From Chiloscyllium plagiosum (Eukaryota): DNA of 64,000 nt. The DNA is taken from NCBI RefSeq assembly GCF_004010195.1, contig NC_057749.1, forward strand, positions 13,944,974 through 14,008,973. Direction: 5' to 3'. The position numbers and the translations under genes were made by a program. The number at the start of each line of letters is the position of its first letter. The stretch's first letter is position 1. Of the stretch, positions 1 through 62,872 are shown in pieces. The notes under the pieces were generated by a model, which was not told the DNA's origin, did no database searches, and worked only from the letters and a program-made list of their open reading frames with translations.

Positions 1-455
1 GTATTCCCAACACCCCTACCCCAAGTCCCTCCTCCCTACCTTTTATCTTAGCCTGCTTGGCACACCCTCCTCATTCCTGAAGAAGGGCTTATGCCCGAAA
101 CATCGATTCTCCTGCTCCTTTGATACTGCCTGACCTGCTGCGTTTTTCCAGCAACACCTCTTTAAACAATCCAATGAGTCAAGAGTGTGGTGCTGGAAAA
201 GCACAGCAGGTCAGGCAGCATCTGAGAAGCAGGAGAATCAACATTTCAGACTGCCTGACCTGCTGCGTTTTTCCAGCAACACCTCTTTAAACAATCCAAT
301 GAGTCAAGAGTGTGGTGCTGGAAAAGCACAGCAGGTCAGGCAGCATCTGAGAAGCAGGAGAATCAACATTTCAGACATAAGCCCTTCATCAGGTATGAGG
401 CTCATTTTCCAGCACCAAACTCTGATGTCCAGCATCTGCAGTCCTCACTTTCTCC
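1..455. mobile_element. Penelope-like pseudo-LTR copies (family A) with decayed hammerhead cores; includes a 125-bp tandem duplication
   Basis: CTGAAGAAGGGCTTATGCCCGAAACATC at 77-104 (+); decayed inverted core at about 361-392 (-); TSD-like TAAACAATCCAATGA at 163-177, 288-302 and 456-470; 125-249 repeated at 250-374. Confidence 0.75.
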
Positions 456-1118
456 TAAACAATCCAATGACTCTGCCAATGTTATCAATGAACAAATTTT
501 GACATTGATCTGCTGAGGAAGCTCCTTGAGCAAAACTTAAATACATCATTCCATCCTGTTCTCTATTATCTGTGGATCAGGAGCTTTTTTCACAGCAGAC
601 TTTTGCATTATTTATTTGTCAACTGCTAAGCAAATTAATTTTATTTAGGTTTGCAGTCAAACTGAGGGTTATCATTTTGCAAATGAGACACCAAACACTG
701 CACATCAAGTACTGCACTGCACTCAACACCAAGGGCATTCCTTACTGCATTGTTTTTGCTTCATTTCACAAACCACCTTTCACGACTCTGGGATATCCCA
801 AACTTTACTGCAGGCACGGGGATACATTTGAAGTGTAGTCACGGTGGTAAGATAGATAACATTAGTTTGCTCACAGCAAAGTTCCATGAACAACAATGCG
901 ATAATGAACATGTAGTCTGATTTAGTGACGTCTGTTTTTGGAGAACTGCAGACAACAACCTCTACTCTTCAGAAAATAGTATGAGCTAAAATTCTACACC
1001 ACTTCCCTGCATTACTGGAATAATGCACTCAAGTGTTAACCTAGACTTTGCATTGATGCATCGGAGAAGGGACTTACCAGGCTAACGCTGCCATCGGAAC
1101 CAGAGGTTTATCATATCA

Positions 1119-1450
1119 GGGGAGGTGGAGAATAGAATTAATGTCACTTGATCACAGGCTAATATTCTGGTGGAATGGATTTGAATTCCACCATGGCAGA
1201 TGTTGAAATAAAATAGAAAGCTAGCCGAATGGCAATCATACAACCAACTTCAATTGTTGTAAATCCTCTTCTGGGTCATTAATGCCCTTTAGGGAAGGAA
1301 ATCTGCCATCGTTATCTGATCTGGCCTAAGTGTGACTCTGGACCCATAATTATGTGGTTGACAGTTAACTGTCCTCTGGAACATTAGGTATGATAATAAA
1401 GCCTGGCCAAGTCTTGCAACATCCATATCCCATGAACAAATATTTAAAAA
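1119..1450 (+). mobile_element. Decayed tRNA-derived SINE with L2-like tail
   Basis: Same body (ggcagatgttg..., tttagggaaggaaatctgccatc, atgtggttgac) as copies at about 20595-20895 and 59790-60130. Confidence 0.5.
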
Positions 1451-1984
1451 TCTAAATCTCCTTTATTAGTCTGTGAGTCCTGACTGTAGACATCACCAGG
1501 TTACATAATGAAGGGTGTCTGAAAAGAATAATGGATGTACTGAACTGCAGAACCACCACATCTCAGAGAGATTATTAACATAACGTTGCATCTATCATAA
1601 TACATTATTCAAATCACTTGTTGATAAGGGTACCTCCAAATAACATCTCATCTGAAAGTTAGTATCTGTAAGCAACACCCCCAGTACCATACTGGAGTAT
1701 TACCTTAGACTGGAATTTCATTAAAATTCACACACAGGCACAGTGGAATTTAAACTTTCATTCCTGGATTACTGGTCCAGGCCTCATGATTACTGTCAGT
1801 CACATAATTACAGCCTATCAAACCTCTACCTAATGAACACTGCTGATGCATTCAATCATGTAGGTGACAACGTGCATTTTTACAACATAGTGAGATAATA
1901 AAATGATAAAAAGAACTTCACTAGGAAATAGCATAAATCTGAAACCCAACCAACAATACAGAAAACTTTCAATAGAATTTTTCA

Positions 1985-2505
1985 CAGAGAGTCATACAGC
2001 CCTTCAGTCCAACTTGTCCGCACTGACCAGATATCCCAATCTGATAGAGTCACATGTGATCCAGCATGTGGCCCATATCCCACTGTAACCTTCCGACTCA
2101 TATACCCTTCCAGATACCTTTTAAATGTTGTAATTGTATCTGTCTCCACCACTTTCTCTAGCAGCTCATTCCATTCATGCTTCACACTCTGCGTGAAAAT
2201 ATTACCCCTCAGCTCCTTTCAAATCTTTCGCTCTCACCCTCAACCAATATCCCTTAGTTTTAGACTCACCCACCCTAGAAAAAAAGACCTTGGCTATTCA
2301 CCCTATCCATGCTCATGCTTTTATAAACCTCTATAAGGTCACCCCTCATCTTCCGACGCTCCAGAGAAAAAAGCCTCAGCCTATTCAGCCTCACCCAATA
2401 ACCCAAACACTCCAGTTCTGGCAACATCCTTGTAAATCTTTTCTGCACCCTTTCAGGTTTAACAAAATCCTTCTGAAAGAAGGGTGGCCAGAATTATATG
2501 CAGTA
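1985..2505 (-). mobile_element. CR1/HER1-type LINE 3' fragment
   Basis: Minus-strand translation 'WNELLEKVVETDTITTFKRYL' is the CR1 ORF2 C-terminus; typical tail (agagtcatacagc on +). Confidence 0.85.
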
Positions 2506-2850
2506 ATGTTGTGATTCTGTTCGCCGAGCTGGAAGTTTTTGTTGCAAACGTTTCGTCCCCTGGCTAGGCGACATCATCAGTGCTTGGGAGCCTCCTGCGA
2601 AGCGCTTCTTTGATGTTTCCTCCGGTGTTTATAGTGGTCTGTCCCTGCCACTTCCGGTTAGACAACCGGAAGCGGCAGGGACAGACCACTATAAACACTG
2701 TAGGAAACATCAAAGAAGCGCTTCGCAGGAGGCTCCCAAGCACTGATGGTGTCGCCGAGCCAGGGGATGAAACGTTTGCAACAAAAACTTCCAGCTCGGC
2801 GAACAGAACCACAACAACGAGCACCCGAGCTACAAATCTTCGCACAAACT
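2506..2850. mobile_element. Palindromic Penelope-like mini-insertion (family D) with two hammerhead motifs
   Basis: Inverted arms 2507-2659 and 2664-2816; 34-nt unpaired tail 2817-2850; 12-bp TSD TTATATGCAGTA at 2494-2505 and 2851-2862. Confidence 0.85.
2544..2583 (-). ncRNA. Minimal hammerhead ribozyme motif (family D)
   Basis: Minus strand reads GCA CUGAUGA U GUC-G-CCU AGCC AGG-G-GAC GAA ACGU U UGC: intact core, stem II, palindromic ACGU stem III, GCA/UGC stem I. Confidence 0.7.
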
Positions 2851-3254
2851 TTATATGCAGTATTTTTTAAATGAGGAACAAAGAAACAAAAGCGGATTTT
2901 TCCATCAACCTATCCAGACAACTAATGCGTAATGGTGAAAGGTTTTGTCATCAAAATGATGCAAAAGGATTAGAGAATGGAAGTGTAAGAGAGACACAGA
3001 TATGAGATTTGATCAATATCTGGATGAGGCTAGAGATACCATGTTGAGCAGAGCTATGGAGGCTTTGAAAAATACAATTAAATCTATGCTGATTGGGCAA
3101 CTCAACTGGGCTATATTGGTGCGCATGGAATTGACCATCAATCTTCACCATGAAGATTGGAACTTGAAGACCAGTCACTTGATCAAAATACCAATGTAGA
3201 AGAACAGGTTACTCTGGATCTACAATACATCTCCTTAGATATAAAGCATGGACA

Positions 3255-3819: not shown

Positions 3820-5045
3820 TAGAGTCAGAAAGTCAGATAGTAAGAAAACAGACCTTTTGGTCCAACCAGTCCAGGTCGACCATAATCCCAAATTAAATTA
3901 CTCCCACCTGCCTTGCGTTTGGCCCATATCCTTATTCATGTACTTATCGAAGTGTCTTTCATTATCACCTGGAAGTTCATTCCACACACGAACCACTGTG
4001 TAAAAAAGATGCCTCATGTCTTTTTCAAATCTCTCGCCTCTCACGTTAAAAATGTGCCCCCGAGTCTTGAAATATCCCACTGCAGGGAAAAGACATCTGC
4101 CATTCACCTTCTCCATATCCCTCATGATTTTATAAACCTCTACAAGGTTCTCTCTCAATCTCCTACACTCCAGTGGAAAATTTCTCAGCCTACCCAGCCT
4201 ATCCTTATAACTCAAATTCTCCATTCCTGGCAATATCCTGGTAAATCTTTTGAACCCTCTCCAGGTTAATAATATTCTTCCTATAACAGGGAGACCAGAA
4301 CTGTACACAGTCCTCCAGAAAAGGCTTCACCAATGTCCTGTCTTAGCTCAACATTACATCCCAACTCCAATACTCAAAAGGTCTGAGCAATGAAGGCAAG
4401 TATGCGCAATGCCTTAACCACCCTGTGTTGCAAACTTTAAAGAATTATACCCCTCAACCCTTCAGTCTCTCTATTCTACATCACCACCCAAGGCCCCACT
4501 TTTAAGTGTATGTGTTGCTTTTGTTTGATTTTCTAAAAGCAGTTCACATTTATCAAATTAAATTCCATTGCCACTCTTGAGCCCATTGACCCAACTGATC
4601 AAGATCTCTTTGTAATCTTACAAAACTTTCTCTACTGTTCATAATACACCAATTTTGGTGTCATCCACAAACTTACTAACCATGCTTTCTATACAGGTCA
4701 TTCTGCTATAAACCATGTTTCGTCAGTGCAAATTAGCGTTAATGCGACTGACAAATTGTGGATGTTATTTGGAAAACGTGAACTTTCTACTTAACAGGGC
4801 TAGCAATTTTCCATTAGCAATTTTTTTACAGTACAATTTACAATTGTGGTTTTCCATCACACTATTTTCTATAGCAAAAGTTGGAGAGGAACACAACTGT
4901 CTCGTTATAGCAGAACGACCTGTATTCTCATGTCTCCTATCGTTAAGCCAAATTTGTATCCAGTTGGCAAGCTCACCCTGAATCCCATATGATCTAGCTT
5001 AATTAATTAGTCTACCAGCCAAAACCTTGTCAAAGGCTTCACTAA
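3820..5045 (-). mobile_element. CR1 LINE fragment interrupted by a MITE
   Basis: ORF 3898..4308(-) RFTRILPG..RRLRENLVEVYKIM..TRGH..WNELP; ADDTK-like motif (ttggtgtcatccacaaac) near 4655. Confidence 0.85.
4694..4922. mobile_element. Tc1/mariner-superfamily MITE (pogo/Tigger-like ends)
   Basis: TIRs CAGGTCATTCTGCTATAA and TTATAGCAGAACGACCTG (17/18 match), flanked by TA at 4692-93 and 4923-24; host CR1 sequence continues on both sides. Confidence 0.8.
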
Positions 5046-5529
5046 TGACTATTCACCAACCTGACTTATAAATATATCTCCAACCTTTCAGTGTTACTAT
5101 ATCAAAATCCTGGAAATTCCACTCCACAATGAGATTGTGGATTTGCCTACAGAGCATGGACTGCAGCATTTTAAGAAGGCAGCTCGCCATCAACTTCTCA
5201 GGAGAAACTGGGGATGTGCAATAAATACTGATCCAGCCAGTGACCTCCACATTCCTACAAATGAGCATCAAATAAAATGAAGCTAATCATCTGGCTATTG
5301 CCATACTGATATTTATGGGGCTTGCTATGCGTAAATTGACTATCACATTTGCTACATTATAACATGCCTTACACTTCAAAAATACTTTGCTGCTTCTTTG
5401 CAATGTTGTGAGATTAAAGAAGATGTTATTTACGTTTTTTTTATACCAAAGGTATTTCATTATTTACCATCAAGTTGTGCATTATCTGATAAAGACTGGT
5501 GATGATAACTCTACCTCCAAATTCTAGCC

Positions 5530-5930
5530 ACCCATGCTTGGAGGAAGAACATCTCATCTTCCACCTTCGGACCCTCTAACCACATTGCATCAATGTCGAT
5601 TTCACCAGTTTCCTGACCTCCCCTCCCTCCACCTTATCCCAGACCCAATCCTCCAAATCGACACTGCTCTCTTGAACTGTCCTACCTGTCCATCTTCCTT
5701 CCCACCTATCTGCTCCAACCTCTATTCTGACCTTTCACCATCACGCCCCACCTTCATCTACTGATTGCAATGCCAGTTACCTTACACCCCCCACATTCCT
5801 GATGAACAGCTTATGCTCGAAACGTCGACTCTCCTGCTCCTCGGATGCTACCTGACCAGCTGTGCTTTTCCAGCACCACACTTTTTCACTCTGATCTCCA
5901 TCATCTGCAGACCTGACTTTCTCTTAGTTG
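5530..5930 (+). mobile_element. 3' end of a Penelope-like element: GIY-YIG C-terminal remnant plus family-A pLTR with hammerhead
   Basis: About 5538-5615 translates LEEEHLIFHLRTL*PHCINVDF (PLE endonuclease C-terminal motif); core CTGATGAACAGCTTATGCTCGAAACGTC at 5799-5826. Confidence 0.75.
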
Positions 5931-6719
5931 ATTATAACTCATCAACAACCTCAGGTTGCAAAGTGCCATACATATGGCTTGTTCAGAGGTGGAATTAACA
6001 GAAAATGACATGAAACATAGTGGTGATGGTGAATGAATATTTTTAGATTAGGGAACACTTCTGCAGGCCACCCAAAGTACAGTTTCCAGTCCAATGCTCT
6101 GTGCAAATTTAAAAACAATTCAGGTTTCTGTGTAGACAGTAACATTAAAAAAATTATGAAACTTGGTAAAACTTTAGCTACTGATTAGTATAATTCTAGG
6201 CTTCAATACAACATAAGCTAGATTAAATGAGTAGAAACACAACACAAATTTTTGGTGGACAGATGAAGAGGGACAGCCAATACAGAAAAGTAGTATGCAA
6301 GAAATGGCACAATTGTGAAAAGTATCAATGACCAAAGAGATGCATACATCTTTAAATGTGACACAGCAATTGGTAAATTGAAAACAAGATCAGTTACTTG
6401 GAGTTATAAACAGGGGAAATGAACATGAAGAAACCAATCTTGGATTTTCAACATCACTGGTGAGATTTTAACTGGAATATTTTGGAGACAACACTGCAGG
6501 GACGATGACCAAAACATTATCAAGGGTAAAGACTTTCAATTGAGAAACTGGAAAAATTAGGAATGTTTTCTTGGGAATGGATGAATTTACGTGGCCTAAT
6601 AGCAGTTTTCAAGATGATAAAATATTCTAATACAGTAAGCAAAGACTAATTACTACTGCAAGAAAGTAGGTCTAAAACCATGTTTTAATATAATTGACAA
6701 GTGAACTAAAGTGGAGAAG

Positions 6720-7324
6720 ATTAAAAATCACAACACCAGGTTACATACCAACAGTTTTATTTGAAAGTACAAACTTTCACAGCACTGCTCCTTCGTCAGG
6801 TATCTAGTGGGGCAGGATACAGGGGACACAGAATTTAAAAGTAAAAAAGATCAAAAAGTCATACAACTGATGCAATGTACCAAATCTAGATGGCTGTAAA
6901 GTCTTTAATCACTTAAGAGACTCCAGGTTGGGATACAGACAGAGCTTAACCTCGCACCTTTACTGCATTATCTGAGCTGAGATAACACTTAATATACTGA
7001 TAAAATCTTAAGTTATCTCAGGGCAGTTGACGTGAAAGAAATTCTGAGAGTTACATACTAATCAATCAAAACCTGCATCCTTACTCTTAGTGATTAAAGA
7101 CTTAACAGCCATCTAAGTTTGTCTAATACATTGCATCAGTTGTATGACACCTTGATCTTTTACTTAGAAATACTGTGCCCTATGTATTCTGCCCACTAGC
7201 TACCTGTTGAAGGAGAAGCACTCCAAAAGCCCGTGCTTTCAAATAAACCTGTTGGACTATTACCTGGTATTGAGAGATTTTTCAACTTTGTCCACCCGAG
7301 TCCAACATCGGCACCTCCACATCA
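6720..7324. mobile_element. Older inverted-repeat Penelope-like insertion (family B)
   Basis: Left arm (aatcacaacaccagg...gctccttcgtcaggta...catacaactgatgcaatgt) is the reverse complement of the right arm (acattgcatcagttgtatg...acctgttgaaggag...ctggtattgagagattttt); hammerhead cores decayed. Confidence 0.7.
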
Positions 7325-7557
7325 AGTGAAGAGGAGATCTGTTGGGAGCTAAAGGGGGTTAGCTGCTAATGTGGTGAAAGTTGATAAAATAAACATTCGT
7401 CTTTTGAAATGATGAGAATGGGGAACTATAGGGCTAAGAATAAAATAGTAGGAACATGTAGTGATGTTCTCCCAACGATGCAGCATAGGTACGATGGGCT
7501 GAATGGTCTCTTTTGAGCTATTTGCTAATTAACGTGTTCAAGGTCGATATTATACAT

Positions 7558-7812
7558 GATTAGATTAGATTACTTACAGTGTGGAAACAGGCCCTTCGGC
7601 CCAACAAGTCCACACTGACCCGCCGAAGCGCAACCCACCCATACCCCTACATTTACCCCTTTAACCTAACACTACAGGCAATTTTAGCGTGGCCAATTCA
7701 CCTGACCCGCACATCTTTGTGACTGTGGGAGGAAACCGGAGCACCCGGAGGAAACCCACGCAGACACGGGGAGAATGTGCAAACTCCACACAGTCAGTCG
7801 CCTGAGTCGGGA
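7558..7812 (-). mobile_element. HE1/V-SINE, 5'-truncated
   Basis: V-domain (gtgtggagtttgcacattctccccgtgtctgcgtgggtttcctccgggtgctccggtttcc) and CR1-type tail on the minus strand. Confidence 0.85.
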
Positions 7813-7927
7813 AGCAGGTGAGACCTATGGTTTCTGAGGAGAAAGTGAGGACTGCAGATGCTGGAGATCAGAGCTGAAAATGCGTTGCTGGAAAAGCGCA
7901 GCAGGTGAGACCTATGGTTTCTCTGAG

Positions 7928-8181
7928 GAGAAAGTGAGGACTGCAGATGCTGGAGATCAGAGCTGAAAATGTGTTGCTGGAAAAGCGCAGCAGGTCAGGC
8001 AGCATCCAGGGAACAGGAGAATCGACGTTTCGGGCATAAGCCCTTCTTCAGGAACGAGGAGGGTGTGCCATGCAGGCTGAGATAAAAGGTAGGGAGGAGG
8101 GACTTGGGGGAGGGGTGTTGGAAATGCGATAGGTTCCTGAAGAAGGGCTTATGCCCGAAACGTCGATTCTCCTGTTCCTTG
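7928..8181. mobile_element. Young family-A PLE insertion with two intact, inverted hammerhead cores
   Basis: 15-bp TSD TATGGTTTCTCTGAG at 7913-7927 and 8182-8196; CTGAAGAAGGGCTTATGCCCGAAACGTC on - (8024-8051) and + (8137-8164). Confidence 0.85.
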
Positions 8182-8269
8182 TATGGTTTCTCTGAGTCTA
8201 CTCATCTGGTAGAATGAGACTAGATGGACATACATGTCTTTTTTGTTGGGGGGCATTCCTATTGTTTCT

Positions 8270-9150
8270 CCGCGAAAGGGTGGATTCAGCAGAAAGGGTG
8301 ATGAGTAGTAAGCATCAGCATTGATTCCCACGGTCACCGAGACGGAGGAGGGTCGCCGATCCGGCAAAAGTACAGCAACGCAACGGTACCCCTCGCCCCT
8401 TCCATCCCTCCTCCCCTCCCCTCCCCCCCGCACCTTGGAACTGCCGCTCCCTGCCGGGCTCTTGCCTTTGCCCCCGTACGAGGATCCCGAGCTGCCGCTG
8501 CCCGATCGTTCCCGCTCGTCGCCGGCAGGCCCCATCTTTGGCCCCGGCCTGTCCCGGGACTCGACGCCGGCTCCAGGCTGCCGTTGCCCGCTCCGCTCGC
8601 GACTATCGCCGCCGCCCAAAAAGGCCGGCGCAAACTCCCTTCGCCTGCTCCTCGACTCTTTGGACATTTCCCCCTCCCCTGCCTCCCCGCTTTCAAATAG
8701 ATCACATCGATTTCTTTTTATTGATGGGTATTAAATTTTTTGCGGTGGGAACGAACGTTCCTCGGCGGAGACAGAGAAAACCGCCTCGGTCGATAACAAC
8801 AGAATAGCGGGCGCCTCACTGACAGGAGCGCAACCAAGCTGCACCGGAAGTGCTATCTCTCTCTAATCGACAGCGACATAAACCAATAATATTTTAGAAT
8901 GCGGAGCATAACCCCTGCTTATCTCTGAAGACGTGTCCCGCCCACTGCCATCGGGCGGGGCTTAAGGCGCGCAGCAAGTTCGGTTGCAGCGTTGCGGGAT
9001 GGTAATGCCCCTAGCGGCTGAATCTGCTCTCTGATTGGTCGTGGCGGGCACGCCTTCCCGTCAGCCGCCAGGGAACTCTCATTCGAACTGGAGGCGGGAA
9101 AAGGATGAGGTGGAGCGAGATGATAAGGTGCGAAGTGTAGAAACCATAGC
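8270..9150. promoter_or_regulatory. CpG island promoter
   Basis: CpG-dense; ETS CCGGAAGT near 8845, CCAAT boxes near 8883 (+) and 9033 (-), GC boxes near 8938 and 8953. Confidence 0.8.
8434..8667 (-). CDS. First coding exon (78 aa, G/S/R-rich, phase 0) of a divergent gene, probably SCAPER by synteny
   Basis: ATG with G at -3 inside a CpG island; open frame MSKESRSRRREFAPAF...GSGSSK ending at an AAG|GTGCGG donor followed by G-runs. Identity inferred only from the SCAPER-RCN2-PSTPIP1 gene order; no downstream exon seen in 1-8433. Confidence 0.55.
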
Positions 9151-9217
9151 GTGTCAATAGCTTTTCTTTTCCAAGGGCAAATTCACAATGCAACAATAAA
9201 ATAAAGAAAAGACACAA

Positions 9218-9305
9218 CCACCTGATAAAGGAGCAGCGCTCCAAAAGCTCGTGCTTCCAAATAAATCTGTTGGACTATAACCTGGTGTTGTGTGATTTTT
9301 CACTT
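9218..9305 (+). mobile_element. Family-B PLE pLTR fragment, mutated hammerhead core
   Basis: cacctgataaaggagcagcgctccaaaagctc...ctggtgttgtgtgattttt matches 44418-44508. Confidence 0.7.
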
Positions 9306-13237: not shown

Positions 13238-13470
13238 AAAACAGAAATTGCTGGAGAAACTCAGCATGTCTGGCAGCAATCTGGAGAGAAAGCAGAATTA
13301 ACGTTTTGGGTCCAGTAGTCCTTCCAAAAGCCTAACCCTGACTCTTCAAAAAGGGTCACTGAATCAGAAATATTAACTCTGCTTTCTCTCCACAGATGCT
13401 ACCAAATCTACCGGTTTCTCCAGCAATTTCTGTTTGTTTTAGATTTCCAGCATCCACAGTTTTTTGTTTT
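13238..13470. mobile_element. Family-C PLE palindromic insertion, decayed
   Basis: aaacagaaattgctggagaaac ... gtttctccagcaatttctgttt inverted arms with decayed cores (gggtcactgaatcagaaatattaac). Confidence 0.65.
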
Positions 13471-14302
13471 ACTTTAATAACAACATATTGCTTTTATTTA
13501 ACAATTATTTCAGTCATCTTGTTAAAAAAAAGAAAAATACACCCCATTAATACATCAATATGTAATGTCTTCTACTTTTTAAAAATACTACAATACTATG
13601 CTTTTGAAAGGTACTTTGTCGACTGTAAGGTCTGTATGGATTTCCTGCATCTTGAAAGCCACTACTTAAATGCAATTCCTTTTATATTTTAAGGATGGCA
13701 GTTGTGTAATTAAGGAAATGGTCATACTGAAATACAAAAGTGTCAAGTGCCACGATATATACTGTGCACTGCCTGGCCCAGGAATGTTTGCTGCTGTAAC
13801 ATTAGTACTGCAGTGATCGCTGAGTAGGACTCTTAATTCTCTGCATGCAGGTTGAGGACTCATGTCCCACTCTATAGATTTGAGTACAAAAATGAGCTGT
13901 TAGTAGCATTGTAGTTAGTATATTTAGTATAGTTAGTATATTACACTGAAACCAAAACCCACCTGCCTCCTCTGCAGGGTAGAAAAGAATTGAGAATGTG
14001 GGAGCAACCCTTAGTGTCCCAGCCAACTCCCCCATTAACATCACAAAAACAGATTGTTTCACTATATTGTTTGTACAGCTTGGTGTGTGTAAATTTGCTG
14101 CCATGTTTTCTACAATAGAAATTAATAGTGTCCAAAAATAATAAAAACAGAACATTTTGGGAGAAACTTTGCAGATCTAGCTGCTTCTGTCGAGAAACAG
14201 AGTTAATATTTCCATTCTGACTTTTCACTCCAAAGAAGAATATAGGAACAATGAACAGGTGTAGTCCATATGGCCCTGTTCATCTGTTCCACCATTCAAT
14301 GA

Positions 14303-14511
14303 TGTGTAGGTGCTGGTGTTAAACTGGGGTGGACAAAAGTCAAAGAGCACACAACACCAGGTTATAGGCCAACAGGTGTATTTGAAACAGCAAGCTTTCG
14401 GAGACCCACTCAGACAGCTAGTAGTCCTTTAGGAAGCAGCAGCGTACCCAAAAGCATCCAGTTTCAAATAAAGCTGTTGGACCATACACTGTTGTGTGAT
14501 TTTTGACTTTG
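14303..14511. mobile_element. Family-B PLE palindromic insertion, decayed
   Basis: 12-bp TSD ACCATTCAATGA at 14291-14302 and 14512-14523; inverted arms with a roughly 32-nt left tail. Confidence 0.7.
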
Positions 14512-14869
14512 ACCATTCAATGAGATCATAGCTGATTTGTGGCCTAACTCCATATACCAGCCTTTGGCTCATATCCCTTAATACGTTACTCAACAAAACA
14601 AAATCCCGATTCTAAATAAGAGTTATGTTGGACTTGAAATATTAATTCTCTCTTCTCAGATACTGCCAGACCTGAGGATTTTCTCCACCTCTATGTTTTT
14701 TATTGTAAAATGTTTTTAGGAGAATTGGGATTATGGTATCTCTGGAGTAGATAAACAACACATCATGATGCCCGTTATCCAAAGACCCTGCACTCAGAAC
14801 AACTAAGAATACAAATATAATTTTTTTCTTGACATTTTGAGTCACTGACATTTTACGTTGACCACAACC

Positions 14870-19826: not shown

Positions 19827-19932
19827 AAAGAAGTTGGGGAGCTTGCTAAACTGAGCCCTGAGGAACAACAATCTCGGCTCAAATCCCTCATCAAGAAGAT
19901 GGATGTGGATGCAGATGGCTTTGTAAGCAAAG
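19827..19932 (+). CDS. RCN2: RCN2 coding exon 2 (106 nt, EF-hand 1)
   Basis: tctcag|KEVGELAKLSPEEQQSRLKSLIKKMDVDADGFVSK-G|gtgaga. Confidence 0.93.
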
Positions 19933-30292: not shown

Positions 30293-30470
30293 CAAAATAG
30301 AAATTGCTGGGGGAAAGAGACTCAGCAGGTCTGACAGCATCTGTGGAGAGAAATCAGAGTTCACATTTCAGGTCCAATGACCCTTCTTCAGAACTTAAGG
30401 GTACTGCCAGACCAGTTGAGTTTTTGCCAGCAATTTCTGATTTCCAGCATCCCGCAGTTCTTTTGGTTCA
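30293..30470. mobile_element. Family-C PLE insertion with decayed minus-strand hammerhead
   Basis: Minus strand ctgaagaagggtcattggacctgaaatgtgaac; inverted arm ccagcaatttct. Confidence 0.6.
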
Positions 30471-38571: not shown

Positions 38572-38790
38572 GAAAATGAGGACTGCAGATGCTGGAGATC
38601 AGAGTCAAGGTTAGAGTAGTGCTGGAAAAGCACAGCAGGTCAAACAGTATCAGAGGAGCAGGAAAATCGATGTTTCGGGCAAAAGCCCTTCATCAGAAAT
38701 GAGAGCTCTCGTTCCTGATGAAGTCAATTTTCCCGTTCCTTGGATGCTGCCTGACCTACTGTGCTTTTCCAGCATCATTCTAATCTTAAC
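38572..38790. mobile_element. Family-A PLE palindromic insertion
   Basis: Minus core CTGATGAAGGGCTTTTGCCCGAAACATC (about 38669-38696); plus core with stem II deleted (ctgatgaa-gtcaat). Confidence 0.75.
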
Positions 38791-41222: not shown

Positions 41223-41800
41223 GATGCTGGAAATCTGAAACAAAAACAAAAATTAATGGAAAAACTCAGCAGGTCTGAGACAATCTGTGGAGAGAGGAAC
41301 AGGGTTAACATTTTGAATCCAGAGTCCTTTCTTCAGAACTGATTGCAACAGGGTATAAGTAGGTATATTGTATATGCTGAAGTTAGCATGGGGGGAATGG
41401 AGAGGAAGAAACTATAGATGGAGATGGACCCTAGAGAGAAAGTACTGTAGTTGGGCAGACAAAGGAATGTGTAAAAGTCTGCCTAGGAGAACAAATAGCT
41501 GCTAACAAGAACAATAGTGGCTGACAATGGATTGTGTGTGGTAGCAGCCCTGGTGATGACAAAGCCTGGTGTGTGGGGGTTGGGTTAAGGACATGGAAGA
41601 AAATGTTCAAGCCCTAAAATTGTTTAAATAGATATTAAGTCCAGAAGGCTATAGGGTTCCCTAGCAGGAAATGAGGAGCTGTTCTTCCAGTTTGCGCTGA
41701 GATTTCATGGAGCAAGGTAGCAAGCCTGAGACCAGAGGCCAGGCTCTGACCTTTGGCCAGAGAACACAGTGTTGAGGGGGCAGACAACTGGCAGCTCAAG
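41223..41800 (-). mobile_element. 3' end of a Penelope-like element: GIY-YIG C-terminus plus family-C pLTR
   Basis: Minus strand about 41800-41620 translates LELPVVCPLN..SQRKLEEQLLI..GTL*PSGLNI; decayed core ctgaagaaaggactctggattcaaaatgtt near 41307-41336. Confidence 0.7.
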
Positions 41801-42559: not shown

Positions 42560-43545
42560 ACAAAGGTTTACCAGACTGATTCCTGGAATGAGGAATTTGT
42601 CCAATGAGAAGAGGTTAAGTGGTTGGCCTATATTATTTAGAATTTCAAAGAGTGAGGTGTAACAAAGTTTGAAGGAACTTCACAGGGAAGATGCTGGGAG
42701 GATGTTTCCCCAAAGTGGGATGAGGAAAGCGATGTTTCATACTAGCAGAATAAGTAGCTGGGAATTTAGGACTAAAATGGGGAAGAATTTCTTCACAGTG
42801 ATTCTCTGAGCCTCCACTGGTATAAAGAATGATGTGGAAATGCCGGTGTTGGACTGGGGTGGACAAAGTCAAAAATCACAAGACAACAGGTTACAGTCCA
42901 ACAGATTTATTTCAAATCACAAGCTTTAGGAGCGCTGTTTCTTCATCAGTTGAAATGGAGGGAGGCACATAGGCACAGGATATTTAGGCAGATAGATAAT
43001 GGCAAGATAATTCCAGGTAGTTAAGAATATCAACAGATAAGTACAAATAATGTGAGTACAGTGTCGACAGGCTGAGTAATAAGTCTTTGCAGGTAATCAA
43101 GACAGTCAAGGGATTAATGCAAACAGTGTGAGTAAACTGTCGACAGCTGAATAACAAGTGAAGGGATGACCTATGAACCAATTAATTAAGGCAGAGAAAT
43201 AATTACAAATAATTGAAAATAAAATGGTGCTAGAGACAGACCAATTGACTGGAATAACATGAGTATCACAGTCGCATGACGAGGGTCTAACAAAAGTAAG
43301 AAGTTATCAAAAACTACAAATTAATTCAAGCAGACAAATAATCACGTAACAATAAAGAATGTCAGTTTTAAAATATACTCTATTAAGAGACAGACAGATT
43401 TTTGGGTACGAACAGAGTTAAGGGAGATGGGGATTATGCGAGATGGTAATATTGAGGTAGAAAATCAGCTATGATTTTATTGCACACCAAGAAGGGTCCA
43501 AAGTCTGAATGATCTATTCTTACTTCTGTTTCTTAGACTCTTGTA
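42560..43545. mobile_element. Old CR1 (+) interrupted by a family-B PLE fragment (-, about 42830-43330)
   Basis: CR1 tail motifs on both sides; gatgtggaaatgccggtgttggactggggtggacaaag...ttcttcatcag matches family B. Confidence 0.6.
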
Positions 43546-44281: not shown

Positions 44282-44506
44282 TGATTCGGAGATGCCAGTG
44301 TTGGACTGGGGTGTACAAAGTTAAAAATCACACAACACCAGGTTATAGTCCAACAGGTTTAATTAGAAGCACACTAGCTTTCGGAGCGACGCTCCTTCAT
44401 CAGGTGATTGTGACAATCACCTGATGAAGGAGCGTCGCTCCGAAAGCTAGTGTGCTTCCAATTAAACCTGTTGGACTATAACCTGGTGTTGTGTGATTTT
44501 TAACTT
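44282..44506. mobile_element. Young, near-perfect palindromic family-B PLE mini-insertion
   Basis: 96-bp arms 44316-44411 and 44413-44508 (one mismatch, 1-nt spacer); 34-nt tail 44282-44315; 12-bp TSD TGCACAAATTGA at 44270-44281 and 44507-44518. Confidence 0.9.
44418..44452 (+). ncRNA. Minimal hammerhead ribozyme motif (family B); identical mirror copy on - at 44372-44406
   Basis: CAC CUGAUGA A GGAGC GUC GCUCC GAA AGCU A GUG: 5-bp stem II, palindromic AGCU stem III, CAC/GUG stem I. Confidence 0.75.
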
Positions 44507-44986: not shown

Positions 44987-45301
44987 GGGTGGCACGGTGG
45001 CACAGTGGTTAGCACTGCTGCCTCACAGCGCCCGAGACCCGGGTTCAATTCCCACCTCAGGCGACTGACTGTGTGGAGTTTGAATGTTCTCCCCGTGTCT
45101 GTGTGGGTTTCCTCCGGGTGCTCTGGTTTCCTCCCACCGTCCAAAAAGATGTGCAGGTTAGGTGAATTGGCCATGCTAAAATTGCCCATAGTGTTAGATA
45201 AGGGGTAATGTAGGGGTATGGGTGGGTTGCACTTAGGCGGGTCGGTGTGGACTTGCTGGGCCGAAGGGGCTGTTTCCACACTGTAATGTAATCTAATCTA
45301 A
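44987..45301 (+). mobile_element. Full-length HE1/V-SINE
   Basis: tRNA A/B boxes (tggcacagtggtt; ggttcaattccc), V-domain, (aatct)n tail. Confidence 0.9.
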
Positions 45302-52029: not shown

Positions 52030-54701
52030 CAAAGGAAGCACATGGTGAGGACAGTGCAGGAGAGAAACTGCACAATTACTGCCTTTACTGTTTTGAATTC
52101 ATGTATCACTGGATATCAGAGTGCATCTGGGAAAATTAACAAACAGTGAAATTCACAACTAATCTTGGAGGAACCTGTTTGGATGAAGTTCACAGCACAG
52201 AATCAAATAAGTTAATCGTTGTTTTAAGTGTGTCCAATAGAAAGGCTGCAGTAGTGAATAGAGTGGGTTCTTTCTTGATTATATGTTTTTGGAGATATGT
52301 CACTTGATTAAACTTAAAATATAAGCCATAACTATTAATTTAACCTGGGACAGTGTTTTGTAGAGGAATAAGACATTGTTATTTTCTGGGTCTGTAGATT
52401 GTGAAGGAGCAAAAATGGCCTTTAGTAGAGTGATATATACTTCTTGTCAGATGTGGGAGTTTAAAGGGAGTATAAGGGTTACTGCGGATTATATCTGTCA
52501 TAAATCATGTTGGATGCAAATCCTATCAGATCAAATGGATCGGTTGGAGAGACAGTTAGAAGCGATGAGGAATTTGCAACAGCAACAATATGTGATGGAT
52601 GGCAGTTATAGGAAAGGGGGGGAAGTCTCAGGTAGTCACATAGACGGGTTAACTCCAGGAAGGGTAAGAGGGGTAGGCACCTAGTGCAGGAGTCTTTTGT
52701 GGACATACTCATTTCAAACAGGTATGCTGTTTTGGAAAATGTAGGGGGTGATGGATTCTCAGGGGAACATAGCGAGAACAGCCAAGTTTCTGGTATTGAG
52801 ACTGGCTCTAATGCAACGAGGGGTACATCGGCTTCCAAGACACCAATTGTGTTAGGGGATTCTGTAGTCCAAGGTACAGACAGACATTTCTGTGGCCAGC
52901 AGTGAAAAAGCAGAATGGTGTGTTGCTTCCCTGGTGTCAGGATCAAGAATATCTAAGAGAGGTGCAGAATGTTCTCACGGGGGGAAGAGGGGCCAGCAAG
53001 AGGTCATTGTCCACATTGGAACCAACGACATTGGAAGGGAAAAGGTTGAGATTCTGAAGGGAGATTACAGAGAGTTAGGCAGAAATTTAAAAAGGAGGTC
53101 CTCGAGCGTAGTAATATCTGCATTACTCCCAGTGCTACGAGCTAGTGAGTGCAGGAAGAGGAGGATAGAGCAGATGAATGCATGGCTGAGGAGCTAGTGT
53201 ATGGGAGAAGGATTAACATTTTTGGATCATTGGAATCTCTTTTGGGGTAGAAGTGACCTGTACAAGGACGGACGGATTGCACCTAAGTTGGAAGGGGACT
53301 AATACACTGGCAGGGAAATTTTCCAGAGCTGCTCGGGAGGATTTAAACTAGTAAGGTGAGGGGGTGGGACCCAGGGAGATAGTGAGGAAAGAGATCAAAT
53401 TGAGACGGGTACAGTTGAGAACGGAAGTGAGTCAAACAGTCAGGGAAGGCAGGGACAAGATAGAACTAATAAATTAAACTGCATTTATTTCAATGCAAGG
53501 GTACTAACAGGGAAGGCAAATGAACTCAGGACTGGGATATCATAGCAATTACAGAAACATGGCTCAAGGATGAGCAGGACTGGCAGCTTAATGTTCCAGG
53601 ATACAAATGCTACAGGAAGGATAGAAAGGGAGGCAAGAGAGGAGGGGAAGTGGCATTTTTGATAAGGGATAGCATTATAGCTGTGCTGAGGGAGGATATT
53701 CCNNNNNNNNNNNNNNNNNNNNNNNNNNNNNNNNNNNNNNNNNNNNNNNNNNNNNNNNNNNNNNNNNNNNNNNNNNNNNNNNNNNNNNNNNNNNNNNNNN
53801 NNNNNNNNNNNNNNNNNNNNNNNNNNNNNNNNNNNNNNNNNNNNNNNNNNNNNNNNNNNNNNNNNNNNNNNNNNNNNNNNNNNNNNNNNNNNNNNNNNNN
53901 NNNNNNNNNNNNNNNNNNNNNNNNNNNNNNNNNNNNNNNNNNNNNNNNNNNNNNNNNNNNNNNNNNNNNNNNNNNNNNNNNNNNNNNNNNNNNNNNNNNN
54001 NNNNNNNNNNNNNNNNNNNNNNNNNNNNNNNNNNNNNNNNNNNNNNNNNNNNNNNNNNNNNNNNNNNNNNNNNNNNNNNNNNNNNNNNNNNNNNNNNNNN
54101 NNNNNNNNNNNNNNNNNNNNNNNNNNNNNNNNNNNNNNNNNNNNNNNNNNNNNNNNNNNNNNNNNNNNNNNNNNNNNNNNNNNNNNNNNNNNNNNNNNNN
54201 NNNNNNNNNNNNNNNNNNNNNNNNNNNNNNNNNNNNNNNNNNNNNNNNNNNNNNNNNNNNNNNNNNNNNNNNNNNNNNNNNNNNNNNNNNNNNNNNNNNN
54301 NNNNNNNNNNNNNNNNNNNNNNNNNNNNNNNNNNNNNNNNNNNNNNNNNNNNNNNNNNNNNNNNNNNNNNNNNNNNNNNNNNNNNNNNNNNNNNNNNNNN
54401 NNNNNNNNNNNNNNNNNNNNNNNNNNNNNNNNNNNNNNNNNNNNNNNNNNNNNNNNNNNNNNNNNNNNGACAAAAGGAACCTAGGGAGAGAATAGGGCCC
54501 CTCAAAGATCAGCAAGGTGGCCTTTGTGTGGAGCCACAGAAAATGGGGGAGATAATAAATGAGTATTTTGCATCAGTATTTACTGTGGAAAAGGATATGG
54601 AAGATATAGACTGTAAGGAAATAGATGGTGACATCTTGCAAAATGTCCATATTACAGAGGAGTAAGTGCTGGATGTCTTGAAACGGGTAAAGGTGGATAA
54701 A
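52030..54701 (+). mobile_element. 5' portion of a CR1 LINE: 5' UTR, disrupted ORF1 (zinc finger, coiled coil, SGNH esterase) and start of ORF2 (APE)
   Basis: ATG 52415 MAFSRVIYTSCQMWE..YICHKSC; IVLGDSVVQ; HIGTND; DGLH; ORF2 CIYFNAR..DIIAITETWL; frameshifts and stops; gap 53703-54468. The 5' boundary is approximate. Confidence 0.85.
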
Positions 54702-54973
54702 TTATTACAGTCTCTGCTGGTTTTACCATCATCGCTCAGCTCTTCAGAAGGTTATAATGGGCAACAGTTTACTCTTTTGCAACAGAGTGAACACGAGGTT
54801 TTCTTAAACTTAATTTGATCACAATTACATTGTGAGTGATGAACAACCTCTAAGTTATACTGTACCGATGGTCGCAATCCCATGAAAGGAATCTCACATC
54901 AAAGTTTCATGTAAACAGGCAAAGGGGATTCTCTATATGCAAGCCAGACACAAAAGCACAAAGTCATGATAAA

Positions 54974-55149
54974 GCTGAAAATGTGTTGCTGGAAAAGCGC
55001 AGCAGGTCAGGCAGCATCCAAGGAACNNNNNNNNNNNNNNNNNNNNNNNNNNNNNNNNNNNNNNNNNNNNNNNNNNNNNNNNNNNNNNNNNNNNNCAGCA
55101 ACACATTTTCAGCTCTGATCTCCAGCATCTGCAGTCCTCACTTTCTCCT
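54974..55149. mobile_element. Family-A palindromic PLE insertion with an assembly gap at its centre
   Basis: Inverted arms either side of Ns 55027-55095; TSD CAAAGTCA(T/C)GATAAA at 54959-54973 and 55150-55164. Confidence 0.8.
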
Positions 55150-55674
55150 CAAAGTCACGATAAACCCTTATAAACACTGTTTCAGCATCAACTAGAATAT
55201 CCAATCCTGGGCACTGGACCTCCAGAGGACATGAAAACTTGAGAGAGAGTCTCAAAATAAATCTTATAAGAATGATTCCAGGGATGAGGGACATGGTCAG
55301 ATTGACAAAGCTGATGGCTCTTCTTAGAAAAAGAAAACTAAGGAGAGATTTCATTGAGCTGTTCAAAATCACTACACAGAGTAGATAGGGAGAAGCTGCT
55401 TCCATTGGGAGAAGAGACAATAATCAGGCGGGATTCATTTTGGGTGATCAGGTAAAGAAGGTCAATAAGATGGCCGGGGGGGAATATTGTTTTGCAGCCA
55501 ATGTTTAGGATCTCAATACTGTCTCCCACTGTCAGTATTCAGCACAGCAGTCTCTGCTGGTTCGACCATCATAGCCCTGAGAGGATGCCGGGAGCACACT
55601 CCGTCATGGCTTTCCAAAGGGCATTTCCTTTGCAATAGAACCTGGAGGATAAAATCTGAAGGGGAAATATTTAT

Positions 55675-61403: not shown

Positions 61404-61530
61404 ATATGATTGGAGGTACCAGTGTTGGACTGGGGTGTACAAAATCAAAAATCATGCAACACCAGGTTATAGTCCAACAGGTTTATTTGAAAGCACTAAC
61501 TTTCGGAGCACTGCTCCTTCATCAAGTAGT
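61404..61530 (-). mobile_element. Family-B PLE pLTR, single arm, mutated core
   Basis: Minus strand ttgatgaaggagcagtgctccgaaagttag. Confidence 0.7.
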
Positions 61531-61985
61531 GTGTGAATTGTGCCACCACACTCCTTGCTTTATGAAGACAAGCACAAAAGGACAGCATTTTGTTCTCCTC
61601 CAGAACTAGACTGGGTGGTGGGGGCTTCATTAATCAGTCAGGATGAAGGTTCTATTGTATCCCTAAACCATGCCCCCTGCCGCCCTCCCCCTCTGATTTA
61701 GTGCAGGGTAGATGGGCTTAAAGTTCACCTTGTCTGGAAACCATTTGAGACCCTTAAGGACCTCATACCACCATTTCTGGTATTCCATCAGCAGTGGGCA
61801 GAGGGACAATACCATACAGGCAAACCAGTGAAGACCCCTAAACAGAAATCTACCCACATACAGGTACTCCCTGTCTGGTACCAATGACCCTACCCCTTCC
61901 TCTTGAGGTTCCATTGCTAATTCCTCTTCTCTCTGAACCTCCTCAAATACTGCTCCTTGAGGTTTCCAGAATTAGGGGGCATAGT

Positions 61986-62288
61986 ATTACATTACTTACA
62001 GTGTGGAAACAGGCCCTTTGACCCAACAAGTCCACACCGTCCTGCCGAAGAGCAACCCACCCAGACCCATTCCCCTACATTTACCCCTTAACCTAACACT
62101 ACGGGCAATTTAGCATGGCCAATTCACCTCGCCTGCACATTTTTTGAACTGTGGGAGGAAACCGGAGCACCCGGAGGAACCCACGCAGACACGGGGAGGA
62201 TGTGCAAACTCCACACAGTCAGTCACCTGAGGCAGGAATTGAACCCAGGTCTCTGGCGCTGTGAGGCAGCAGTGTTAACCACTGTGCC
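61986..62288 (-). mobile_element. HE1/V-SINE
   Basis: tRNA head, V-domain and tail on the minus strand. Confidence 0.88.
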
Positions 62289-62516
62289 AGATTGTTCAGG
62301 AGGGTTGTTAGGAAGCCCTTCTGCACACAGAGGGTGGTAGATGTTTGGAATTATTTGTCAAAGAGCAGTCGATGCTGTATCAGTGATAATTTTAAATTTG
62401 AGATTTTTTTTCTGTAAAGTAAAGGTATTAAGAGATATGGGCCAAAGGATATGAAGTTAGGCTACAGATCAGCCATGATCTAATTGACTGATGGAACAGG
62501 CTTGAAGGGCTGAATG

Positions 62517-62718
62517 TTGAAACTTTATTGCTGGAACAGCACAGCAGGTCAGGCAGCATCCAGGGAACAGGAGATTCGACGTTTCGGGCACAGGCCCTTC
62601 TTCAGGAAAGCCCGAAACGTCGAATCTCCTGTTCCCTGGATGCTGCCTGACCTGCTGTGCTGTTCCAGCAATAAAGTTTCAACTTTGATCTCCAGCATCT
62701 GCAGACCTCACTTTCTCT
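62517..62718. mobile_element. Young family-A palindromic PLE mini-insertion
   Basis: Perfect arms 62516-62589 and 62610-62683; tail of about 35 nt; 15-bp TSD TTGAAGGGCTGAATG at 62502-62516 and 62719-62733. Confidence 0.9.
62575..62608 (-). ncRNA. Minimal hammerhead ribozyme motif (family A)
   Basis: UUC CUGAAGA A GGGC CUGU GCCC GAA ACGU C GAA: intact core, GUC cleavage triplet, UUC/GAA stem I. Confidence 0.75.
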
Positions 62719-62749
62719 TTGAAGGGCTGAATGGCCTACTCCTGTTCCT

Positions 62750-62872
62750 AGGAGAAAGTGATGACTGAAGATGCTGGCAATCAGAGTTGAGAGTGTGGTG
62801 CTGGAAAAGTATGGCAGGTCAGGCAGCATCCGAGGGGCAGGAGAATCGATGTTTCAGGCATAAGCCCTTCAT
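62750..62872 (-). mobile_element. Older family-A pLTR fragment
   Basis: aggagaaagtgatgactg...gatgtttcaggcataagcccttcat. Confidence 0.7.

What the first reader, a model, noticed from the sequence alone, without database searches (positions are those of the whole stretch)
1..62872. Four distinct families of hammerhead-ribozyme-bearing Penelope-like mini-elements pervade the locus
Seen: about 20 short repeats fall into four families with unrelated flanking sequence but one shared architecture, CUGA(A/U)GA, one extra base, stem II, GAA, a 4-nt palindrome, then H. A: CUGAAGA A GGGC-UUAU-GCCC GAA ACGU C. B: CUGAUGA A GGAGC-GUC-GCUCC GAA AGCU A. C (decayed copies only): CUGAAGA A GGGUC..GACC(C/U) GAAA. 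D: CUGAUGA U GUC..GAC GAA ACGU U. Stems I and II differ in sequence between families but keep their pairing. Families A and C are physically joined to GIY-YIG C-terminal remnants (5538-5615, 41620-41800). Known: Penelope-like elements carry minimal hammerheads with a palindromic stem III, proposed to act as dimers (Cervera and de la Pena 2014). Inference: this shark genome hosts a dense, multi-family population of largely ORF-less ribozyme retroelements, some of them recently mobile; this extent in chondrichthyans may be undescribed.
Basis: partly seen in the sequence, partly recalled or inferred. Interest (0 to 1): 0.8.

Follow-up and report, generated by a model that had tools for sequence, protein, structure and literature searches.

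The report
Penelope retroelement hammerheads crowd shark genome
The small self-cutting-RNA motifs in this stretch are real but of a known kind, the tail ends of Penelope-like jumping genes; what stands out is their very large number in this shark-like genome and signs that most copies were made from RNA the ribozyme had not cut.

Summary
Observation confirmed; the kind is known. The repeats are 3' ends (pLTRs) of Penelope-like retrotransposons carrying minimal type-I hammerheads (Cervera & de la Peña 2014). A and B belong to Neptune-type elements and D to a Poseidon-type element (RT plus GIY-YIG parents found). C is an old relative of A, not unrelated. Six of 35 window fragments keep an intact core, mostly as inverted pairs that fold into inert hairpins. 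This scan reported the same kind before in this and other genomes.

Added here:
(1) 207,396 intact-core motifs genome-wide (control 566); about 40,000-240,000 by the published descriptor, against 4,000-9,000 reported for coelacanth and Xenopus.
(2) 5' junctions of young copies pile up just upstream of the core (A 34 of 89, B 27 of 75), not at the cut site (1 of 89, 0 of 75), so templates were uncleaved RNA.
(3) In one RNA run, family B transcripts are polyadenylated 29 nt past the uncut hammerhead.
(4) In D, the ORF's start and stop codons both lie inside the hammerhead.

Short copies look like run-off by-products of autonomous elements, not independent mini-elements. Cleavage and present-day mobility are unshown.

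The parts
2506..2850 (.). Family D (Poseidon-type) insertion: two head-to-head pLTR arms, tail on the right arm only, 12-bp TSD at 2494-2505 / 2851-2862
   Evidence: arms 139 of 147 identical
2544..2583 (-). Intact D hammerhead (3-bp stem I, core from 2580, stem II 3 bp + G.G + 2 bp, ACGU, GUU site). In full-length D the ORF start AUG (A9-U9.1-G10.1) and stop UAG (loop II) lie here
2740..2779 (+). D hammerhead with broken core (A9 to G)
5541..5654 (+). GIY-YIG endonuclease C-terminal remnant of an old family-A (Neptune-type) copy
   Evidence: tblastn E 6.5e-7; relatives
5796..5923 (+). Old family-A hammerhead (closing pair of stem II lost) and tail
6717..7322 (.). Old family-B inverted pair (cores 6799- and 7205+, both decayed), 8-bp TSD
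7836..8185 (.). Young family-A inverted pair with TSD
8020..8055 (-). Intact-core A1 hammerhead (stem I only 2 bp then U.U; GUC site)
8133..8168 (+). Intact-core A1 hammerhead; copy begins about 3 nt upstream of the core
3..456 (.). Cluster of family-A ends (cores 77+ and 392-, palindrome broken in both)
9214..9305 (+). Decayed family-B end with AAUAAA
9341..9483 (.). Decayed family-C pair (core 9430-)
13238..13429 (.). Decayed family-C inverted pair
14302..14511 (.). Decayed family-B inverted pair
14629..14687 (+). Decayed family-C end
30301..30400 (-). Family-C copy with core and 5-bp stem II, palindrome and H17 broken
38572..38777 (.). Family-A inverted pair (core 38696-, palindrome broken)
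41236..41345 (-). Decayed family-C hammerhead and tail
41616..41732 (-). Endonuclease C-terminal remnant upstream of the family-C copy, similar to family A's
   Evidence: E 0.031, 41% over 39 aa; weak
42832..42953 (-). Decayed family-B end
44282..44506 (.). Young family-B (Neptune-type) insertion: near-perfect head-to-head hairpin, 12-bp TSD at 44270-44281 / 44507-44518
   Evidence: fold (stem II probability 0.00 in context)
44418..44452 (+). Intact B hammerhead (3-bp stem I, 5-bp stem II, AGCU, CUA site); passes the published descriptor
44372..44406 (-). Intact B hammerhead, mirror arm
44460..44494 (+). Family-B poly(A) signal (AUUAAA), poly(A) site about 12-15 nt after it, GU-rich downstream element
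   Evidence: sequence; site used in family-B RNAs in run X21 laid on L143; use at this window locus not shown
54973..55150 (.). Family-A inverted pair around a 69-nt assembly gap
61410..61527 (-). Older family-B end (U3 core, palindrome broken)
62513..62717 (.). Young A2 inverted pair; intact hammerhead core at 62605- (passes the published descriptor, locked in hairpin)
62750..62872 (-). Old family-A end, core lost

Best explanation
These are the 3' ends (pseudo-LTRs) of three or four lineages of endonuclease-bearing Penelope-like retrotransposons, each with a minimal type-I hammerhead: Neptune-type A (with old relative C), Neptune-type B and Poseidon-type D. SHOWN: parentage, inverted-pair/TSD/tail anatomy, about 200,000 intact-core motifs, a sharp 5' boundary just upstream of the core, and use of the family-B poly(A) site. 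INFERRED mechanism: transcription of a master element starts at an initiator a few bases upstream of the hammerhead in the upstream pLTR. The element's RT starts internally 80-125 nt downstream of the core (the 'tail' sites). When it starts on the 5' pLTR it runs off the RNA 5' end and leaves an 85-130-nt copy holding the whole, uncut hammerhead. When it starts on a downstream pLTR it makes longer 5'-truncated copies reaching into the endonuclease gene. Priming at both nicked target strands joins two cDNAs head to head, giving inverted pairs. After insertion nearly all copies are inert: a lone minimal hammerhead needs a same-sense partner to build stem III, most have only an antisense partner and fold into long hairpins, and they decay. 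Any cleavage role is confined to tandem masters and probably needs the element's protein, as in the anole element.
For: Parents: A 649-aa RT+EN frame (L092; RVT_1 E 2.5e-6, GIY-YIG E 3e-4, both just under Pfam cut-offs); B 620-aa frame (L153); D pLTR-ORF-pLTR units of 2.44-2.50 kb (L085, L099, L101; RVT_1 E 2e-11). CX4CxxC linker in A and B, absent in D. Geometry in 20 fixed-position 10-kb stretches: 43 of 67 ends have a head-to-head partner within 1.5 kb, 7 a same-strand partner, 23 neither; 3' ends cluster near +75-92 and +114-130. Tail-anchored young copies: A 34 of 89 junctions at -6..-1, 3 at -43..-7 (two at N gaps), 1 at the cut site; B 27 of 75 at -11..-1, 0 at -23..-12, 0 at the cut site (p 5e-22 and 5e-10 against uniform). 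Same variants in short and long A copies. Hairpin context abolishes stem II (p 0.00 for 44421+ and 62605-). Run X21: 738+106 reads carry poly(A) 29-32 nt past the B cut site and depth runs through the motif; no pile-up of ends. Literature: unprocessed RNA is the main insertion substrate, RT starts 111-118 nt into the ORF, both strands are nicked and extended, hammerhead is protein-assisted (PMC11167929); promoter with Inr in the pLTR (PMC2377424 passages).
Against: No transcription start was mapped; the initiator match (BBCA+1BW) is a recalled consensus. The 5' peak also sits on ATT/AAT, the cut motif of the anole endonuclease. The B peak is broad (12 more junctions at 0..+4). Junction calls are ambiguous by 2-3 nt, inverted arms are not independent, and samples come from the first 3-14 Mb of one contig. 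No tandem full-length A or B element was recovered, so the 5' pLTR of A/B masters is not seen. The RNA evidence is one sample whose species may differ from G000, from a 3'-end poly(A) library that cannot see 5' cleavage products or a 29-nt 3' product, so the cleaved fraction is unmeasured.
Confidence: 0.78

Rival explanations
1. Same identity, but the fixed 5' boundary is made by the element's own endonuclease cutting the cDNA or integration intermediate at an ATT motif in its pLTR, not by run-off at a transcription start.
For: The anole PAc endonuclease prefers 5'-ATT-3' near its own ORF-pLTR junction. A has ATT at -4..-2 and many B copies have AAT at -6..-4.
Against: B variants without AAT (CCAC/CTAC upstream) still start in the same zone. 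The A peak and the modal B position (-8) coincide with the +1 A of initiator-like hexamers (consensus recalled).
Confidence: 0.3
2. The short units are self-propagating non-autonomous elements (SINE- or retrozyme-like) with their own promoter and RT site, amplified from short masters.
For: Reproducible 5' and 3' boundaries; 67 of 89 young A ends are short. A unit starting at its own initiator could be re-transcribed. A preprint derives vertebrate retrozymes from pLTRs.
Against: No private variants among the two sites compared. No hammerhead tandem arrays in the window and only 7 of 67 ends have a same-strand neighbour. Inverted pairs have variable junctions and individual TSDs.
Confidence: 0.15
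3. The motifs act on host RNAs: sense copies in long introns or 3' UTRs dimerise through shared ACGU/AGCU palindromes and cut pre-mRNAs, and B copies remove their own poly(A) tail as the Clec2 hammerhead does.
For: About 58 intact cores per Mb. A, C and D share the ACGU palindrome. The B cut site lies just upstream of a used poly(A) site. Clec2 precedent (PMC6765202 passage).
Against: The intermolecular helix is 4 bp (-1.7 to -2.5 kcal/mol). Published activity is low even for dimers, and 8 of 9 Xenopus dimers did not cut. Copies show CpG-type decay of the palindrome. Abundant uncut B RNAs exist.
Confidence: 0.07

Closest known systems
Minimal hammerheads (min-HHR) in pLTRs of metazoan Penelope-like elements (Cervera & de la Peña 2014, PMC4209133; main-text parts 1-2 of 4 and the whole supplement text read)
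   Same: Core CUGANGA, extra base before stem II, G10.1-C11.1, palindromic 15.2-16.2, short stem I; several families per genome; mostly solo 5'-truncated copies; close pairs on opposite strands.
   Different: No chondrichthyan among the species in their Fig. S3. Their highest vertebrate counts are about 4,000 (coelacanth) and 9,000 (Xenopus). The dominant A1 subfamily (2-bp stem I) and D (split stem II) fall outside their descriptor.
Poseidon_Ac (PAc) of the green anole (Frangieh et al. 2024, PMC11167929; parts 1-2 of 4 and term searches read)
   Same: Family D: ORF starts at the beginning of stem II, cut site about 26 nt downstream of the AUG; tail ends; uncut RNA used as template.
   Different: In D the stop codon also lies in the hammerhead (loop II, 24 of 25 copies), so the ORF is 11 nt longer than the repeat unit; the main text does not mention this. 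D's closest named non-shark relatives are flatworm elements.
Neptune clade PLEs (linker definition in Craig et al. 2021, PMC8557442; passages read)
   Same: A and B have the CX2-5CxxC linker, C-terminal GIY-YIG, inverted 5'-truncated copies and tails.
   Different: B has a used poly(A) site between the hammerhead and the tail. I found no description of this in two searches.
Non-LTR retrozymes (Li, Clavereau, Pollet 2026 preprint 10.64898/2026.07.22.740005; parts 1-3 of 5 read, supplements closed)
   Same: ORF-less, hammerhead-bearing, pLTR-derived; reported in one chondrichthyan.
   Different: They are defined as tandem arrays with at least two complete hammerheads; these copies are solo or inverted.

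Membership tests
EN+ Penelope-like elements | Single ORF with RT and C-terminal GIY-YIG upstream of the repeat | tested here: met
   A L092, B L153/L156, D L099; for C only the EN C-terminus was seen
EN+ Penelope-like elements | Direct (tandem) pLTRs flanking the ORF | tested here: met
   D: L085, L099, L101; not recovered for A, B or C
EN+ Penelope-like elements | Inverted 5'-truncated pLTR, optional tail, TSD | tested here: met
EN+ Penelope-like elements | RT groups with PLE/telomerase RTs in a tree | not tested
   no named reference set at hand; only Pfam and similarity hits
Neptune clade (A, B) | CX2-5CxxC linker between RT and EN | tested here: met
Neptune clade (C) | CX2-5CxxC linker | tested here: inconclusive
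   no long C copy fetched; assigned by tail and EN similarity to A
Neptune versus Nematis | RT phylogeny | not tested
   both clades share the linker; Neptune preferred because the preprint found only Neptune and Poseidon in the vertebrates it sampled
Penelope/Poseidon clade (D) | No Zn-finger linker; ORF start inside the hammerhead as in PAc | tested here: met
min-HHR (Cervera 2014) | Core CUGANGA, extra base, GAAANNUH, G10.1-Y11.1, palindrome | tested here: met
min-HHR (Cervera 2014) | Stem I >=3 bp in families B, C, D and subfamily A2 | tested here: met
min-HHR (Cervera 2014) | Stem I >=3 bp in the dominant subfamily A1 | tested here: not met
   2 bp then U.U then A-U
min-HHR (Cervera 2014) | Uninterrupted stem II 3-7 bp with loop <=10 nt in D1/D2 | tested here: not met
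   3 bp + purine mismatch + 2 bp; an older D variant listed has 6 contiguous pairs
min-HHR (Cervera 2014) | Compensatory changes between families | tested here: met
   stem I closing pair C-G (A, B), U-A (C), A-U (D); second stem II pair G-C (A, B, C), U-A (D)
min-HHR (Cervera 2014) | Self-cleavage as a dimer | not testable with these tools
Rfam hammerhead families | Covariance-model match | tested here: not met
   no hammerhead model among 15 matches at E<=5
Non-LTR retrozyme | Tandem array of >=2 units each with a complete hammerhead | tested here: not met
   none in the window; 7 of 67 sampled ends have a same-strand neighbour

The most novel reading that the evidence does not exclude
Shark Neptune elements organise the pLTR like a retroviral R-U5. 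Transcription starts 4-8 nt before the hammerhead, family B polyadenylates about 60 nt later, and RT starts further downstream (+85/+118), at sites that a polyadenylated 3' end lacks. The first product would be a strong-stop-like cDNA copied from the 5' pLTR. It either integrates directly (the hundreds of thousands of short copies) or jumps through the shared hammerhead-containing R region to the RNA 3' end to regenerate a pLTR, a step for which no mechanism has been known. As a by-product, tens of thousands of B copies would seed the genome with working poly(A) sites, each preceded by a latent self-cleaving motif.
Probability: 0.2. Interest if true: 0.72.

Novelty: new member of a known kind. 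Interest (0 to 1): 0.4.

Why it matters
The kind of element and ribozyme has been in print since 2014, so the finding as stated is an expected extension to sharks. Its value is as a very large natural sample for an open question: what the hammerhead does in Penelope-like elements and how pLTRs and inverted ends arise. The junction record says that integrated short copies came from uncut RNA, matching an in vitro result for one lizard element, and it points to a testable transcription start and poly(A) site around the ribozyme. The count suggests one of the densest hammerhead-motif loads reported for a vertebrate, though most copies are probably inert.

Tried and rejected
Rfam scan: no hammerhead model matched; top hits were miRNA models on the inverted B pair, rejected as hairpin artefacts.

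Pairs of A cores 2.4-3.8 kb apart as candidate full-length elements: unrelated insertions or assembly gaps. Long 'open frames' in the search tables that I fetched often ran through N gaps. No 5' pLTR joined to an A or B ORF was found in 30 A loci or 16 B loci.

BLAST-derived 5' ends of old copies were dropped as evidence for the boundary, because subfamily divergence mimics it (the 5799 copy really extends to about 5540); one search uses young tail-anchored copies instead. Splicing at the polypyrimidine tract upstream of A as the cause of the boundary was rejected because 5' flanks are heterogeneous. RT stalling at the fold was considered unlikely because RT meets the stems from the 3' side.

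Internal oligo-dT priming as the cause of the B poly(A) reads was rejected: there is no A-run downstream, and no such loose end appears among the rows shown for contig runs X1 and X15 (1,098 rows were not shown). No RNA holder was listed by the run search; X22 laid no reads. The absence of end pile-ups at cut sites is not counted as evidence against cleavage.

Lünse et al. 2017 is not held, so I know it only through reviews; it, the preprint's supplements, Dfam and Repbase could hold shark counts I could not see. Horizontal transfer of D from flatworms was not tested.


Full report
1. Observation. The motifs are in the window as described. A strict scan gives six copies with core, stem II, palindrome and H intact (A 8137+, 8051-, 62605-; B 44421+, 44403-; D 2580-), against a mean of 0.01 in 100 Markov simulations. 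BLAST finds 35 end fragments (A 16, B 9, C 8, D 2). The endonuclease remnants are at 5541-5654 (E 6.5e-7) and 41616-41732 (E 0.03). The C consensus from decayed copies occurs exactly 22 times in the genome. A and C share a homologous 3' tail, so they are not unrelated. Rfam has no matching hammerhead model.

2. Parents. Walking upstream in G000 (3.56 Gb) gave RT plus GIY-YIG frames for A (L092, 649 aa), B (L153, 620 aa; 3' UTR of about 750 nt with microsatellites) and D (L085, L099, L101: pLTR-ORF-pLTR, 2.44-2.50 kb units). Pfam: RVT_1 for A (E 2.5e-6, under cut-off) and D (E 2e-11); GIY-YIG for A (E 3e-4, under cut-off). A and B carry the CX4CxxC linker that marks Neptune/Nematis; D lacks it (definition from PMC8557442 passages). 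A and B proteins are about 30% identical to each other, and about 26% to D. D's best named hits are Chiloscyllium punctatum proteins (87-89%), then flatworm and unnamed proteins (39-55%), with a Stegostoma protein at 60%; only 120 of 1,341 hits were listed. That supports a shark host, by inference. No complete uninterrupted ORF was among the loci fetched; each protein search scored only 150 candidates and I fetched a subset.

3. Abundance. Exact or near-exact patterns: A 28,912, B 12,920, D 4,414, C 22; controls 0. A generic core pattern without pairing gives 207,396 against 566 for the reversed control, about 58 per Mb. Twenty fixed-position 10-kb stretches (194,416 bases) held 73 end fragments and 16 generic matches where 11.3 were expected, so the window is ordinary to slightly rich. 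With the published descriptor, 6 hits in 194 kb extrapolate to about 110,000 (95% interval 40,000-240,000; 0 in 4 Mb of simulated sequence). Cervera & de la Peña report about 4,000 for coelacanth and 9,000 for Xenopus. The dominant A1 subfamily and D1/D2 fail that descriptor (2-bp stem I; split stem II).

4. Anatomy of the copies. Of 67 sampled ends, 43 have a head-to-head partner within 1.5 kb, 7 a same-strand partner and 23 neither; in the window 22, 11 and 7 of 31. 3' ends fall in two clusters (about +75-92 and +114-130 from C3), the known PLE tail. In context the inverted pairs at 44.4 and 62.6 kb fold into long hairpins with stem II probability 0.00; the palindromic stem III duplex is only -1.7 to -2.5 kcal/mol.

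5. Where copies begin. I anchored on 35-nt tails downstream of the cut site (62,467 A and 20,192 B exact matches) and mapped 5' junctions in 89 A and 75 B ends from the start of contig C1; these are part of the first 100 listed places of each search. A: 22 extend past -44, 3 end at -43..-7 (two at gaps), 34 at -6..-1, 30 at 0..+38, of which 1 is at the cut site (+28). B: 17 extend past -115, 5 at -71..-24, 0 at -23..-12, 27 at -11..-1, 12 at 0..+4, 14 at +8..+37, none at +29 (two at +31). Against a uniform spread p is 5e-22 and 5e-10; there is no excess at the A cut site (p 0.9). Arms of one insertion are not independent and junctions are uncertain by 2-3 nt. A template cut at +28 could not donate the 5' half of the ribozyme, so these short copies came from uncut RNA. 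The peak lies on initiator-like hexamers (consensus recalled, not from a call) and also on ATT/AAT. Short and long A copies share variants, which argues against a separate non-autonomous lineage, on two sites only.

6. RNA. Reads were laid on L143:8030-9560, which holds one B and one A end. In X21 (single-cell poly(A) reads, about 2% of the run, 12.96 million records; organism coded, possibly not the species of G000), 738 and 106 reads carry poly-T loose ends at 8121 and 8118. On the element's sense strand that is a poly(A) tail 12-15 nt after AUUAAA, before a GU-rich tract, and 29-32 nt past the predicted cut (8150/8149). Depth across the B motif is 1,015 sense against 113 antisense, with at least three sequence variants. 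A shows little strand bias (430 vs 308). 66 of 79 B tails keep AUUAAA or AAUAAA. No pile-up of ends was listed, which this library type could hardly show. X22 laid nothing. So uncut, polyadenylated B RNAs exist in one sample; how many loci make them and what fraction is cut is unknown.

7. Family D. The first in-frame AUG of the ORF is A9-U9.1-G10.1 of the hammerhead (L085, L099), and related proteins begin with the same M-x-x-R-x-x-x-KRL stretch, as described for the anole element. The stop codon lies in loop II of the 3' hammerhead in 24 of 25 copies. The ORF thus overlaps itself by 11 nt across the unit (L085 unit 2,503 nt), and a cleaved linear monomer has no complete ORF (inference).

8. 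Mechanism. Shown: items 1-7. Inferred: start just upstream of the ribozyme, internal RT initiation at the tail sites, run-off copies from the 5' pLTR, longer copies from downstream pLTRs, twin priming for inverted pairs, inertness after insertion. Rivals: endonuclease-defined boundary (0.3), self-propagating short elements (0.15), action on host RNA (0.07). A circular template (Cervera's proposal) is compatible with long copies but gives no 5' end at -4/-8.

9. What is known. PMC4209133 (parts 1-2 of 4 and the supplement text) describes the motif, multiple families, solo copies and opposite-strand pairs; no cartilaginous fish is in its alignment. PMC11167929 (parts 1-2 of 4 and term searches) shows internal RT starts, uncut substrate and protein-assisted cleavage. 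The 2026 preprint (parts 1-3 of 5; supplements closed) finds retrozymes in one chondrichthyan. Passages only: PMC6155905, PMC6765202, PMC8557442, PMC2377424, PMC3846280, PMC4350176, PMC8455134 (Penelope listed in whale shark), PMC7761336. Searches for shark plus hammerhead plus Penelope, for a PLE poly(A) signal and for strong-stop or strand transfer in PLEs listed no paper on these points; I read only listings for most hits, the library omits most subscription papers, and Lünse et al. 2017 was not held. Earlier notes of this scan report the same kind in this and other genomes; two word searches found no note on the poly(A) site or the 5' peak.

10. Verdict. Real, new members of a known kind, interest 0.4. 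The identity is ordinary; the scale, the junction record and the poly(A) site make the open question of PLE hammerhead function easier to test.

Noticed in passing
window 17930-35070 (+): Exons of a reticulocalbin-like gene (EF-hand loops, C-terminal HDEL; name RCN2 recalled). None of the six intact hammerheads lies within this span.
   Followed up: partly
window 8300-9100: GC-rich, CpG-island-like stretch that may be a bidirectional promoter. A minus-strand gene (SCAPER by recalled synteny, untested) would have the intact A 8051- and D 2580- motifs in sense, 5.5 kb apart, both with ACGU palindromes.
   Followed up: no
L099:1017-2990 (-): Family D protein is closest to flatworm elements outside sharks (Dicrocoelium 50%, Clonorchis 53%, Opisthorchis 52%), and its hammerhead closely resembles the Clonorchis motifs in Cervera's Fig. 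S3. Ancient horizontal transfer is possible but untested.
   Followed up: partly
G000:C1:944837, 1228685, 1752197: An older D-like hammerhead variant with a fully paired 6-bp stem II, showing compensatory change relative to D1/D2 (listing).
   Followed up: no
L092:1623-1762 (-); window 62610-62717: Subfamily A2 has a 3-4-bp stem I and an AAUAAA in its tail, unlike the dominant A1.
   Followed up: no
window 53703-54468 and 55027-55095; L045, L046, L048, L050, L054: Assembly gaps often sit between inverted pLTR arms, so long and full-length copies are probably under-assembled.
   Followed up: no
genome-wide sample L127-L146: 43 of 67 ends are in head-to-head pairs, implying a very large pool of potential double-stranded RNA hairpins (editing or small-RNA substrates).
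   Followed up: no
window 7560-7810, 44985-45300 and others: Abundant tRNA-derived SINE-like and CR1/L2-like repeats typical of sharks (family names recalled, not tested).
   Followed up: no
window 125-376 and 7813-7995: Exact or near-exact local tandem duplications (125 and 89 nt) overlapping family-A tails; could be real or assembly artefacts.
   Followed up: no
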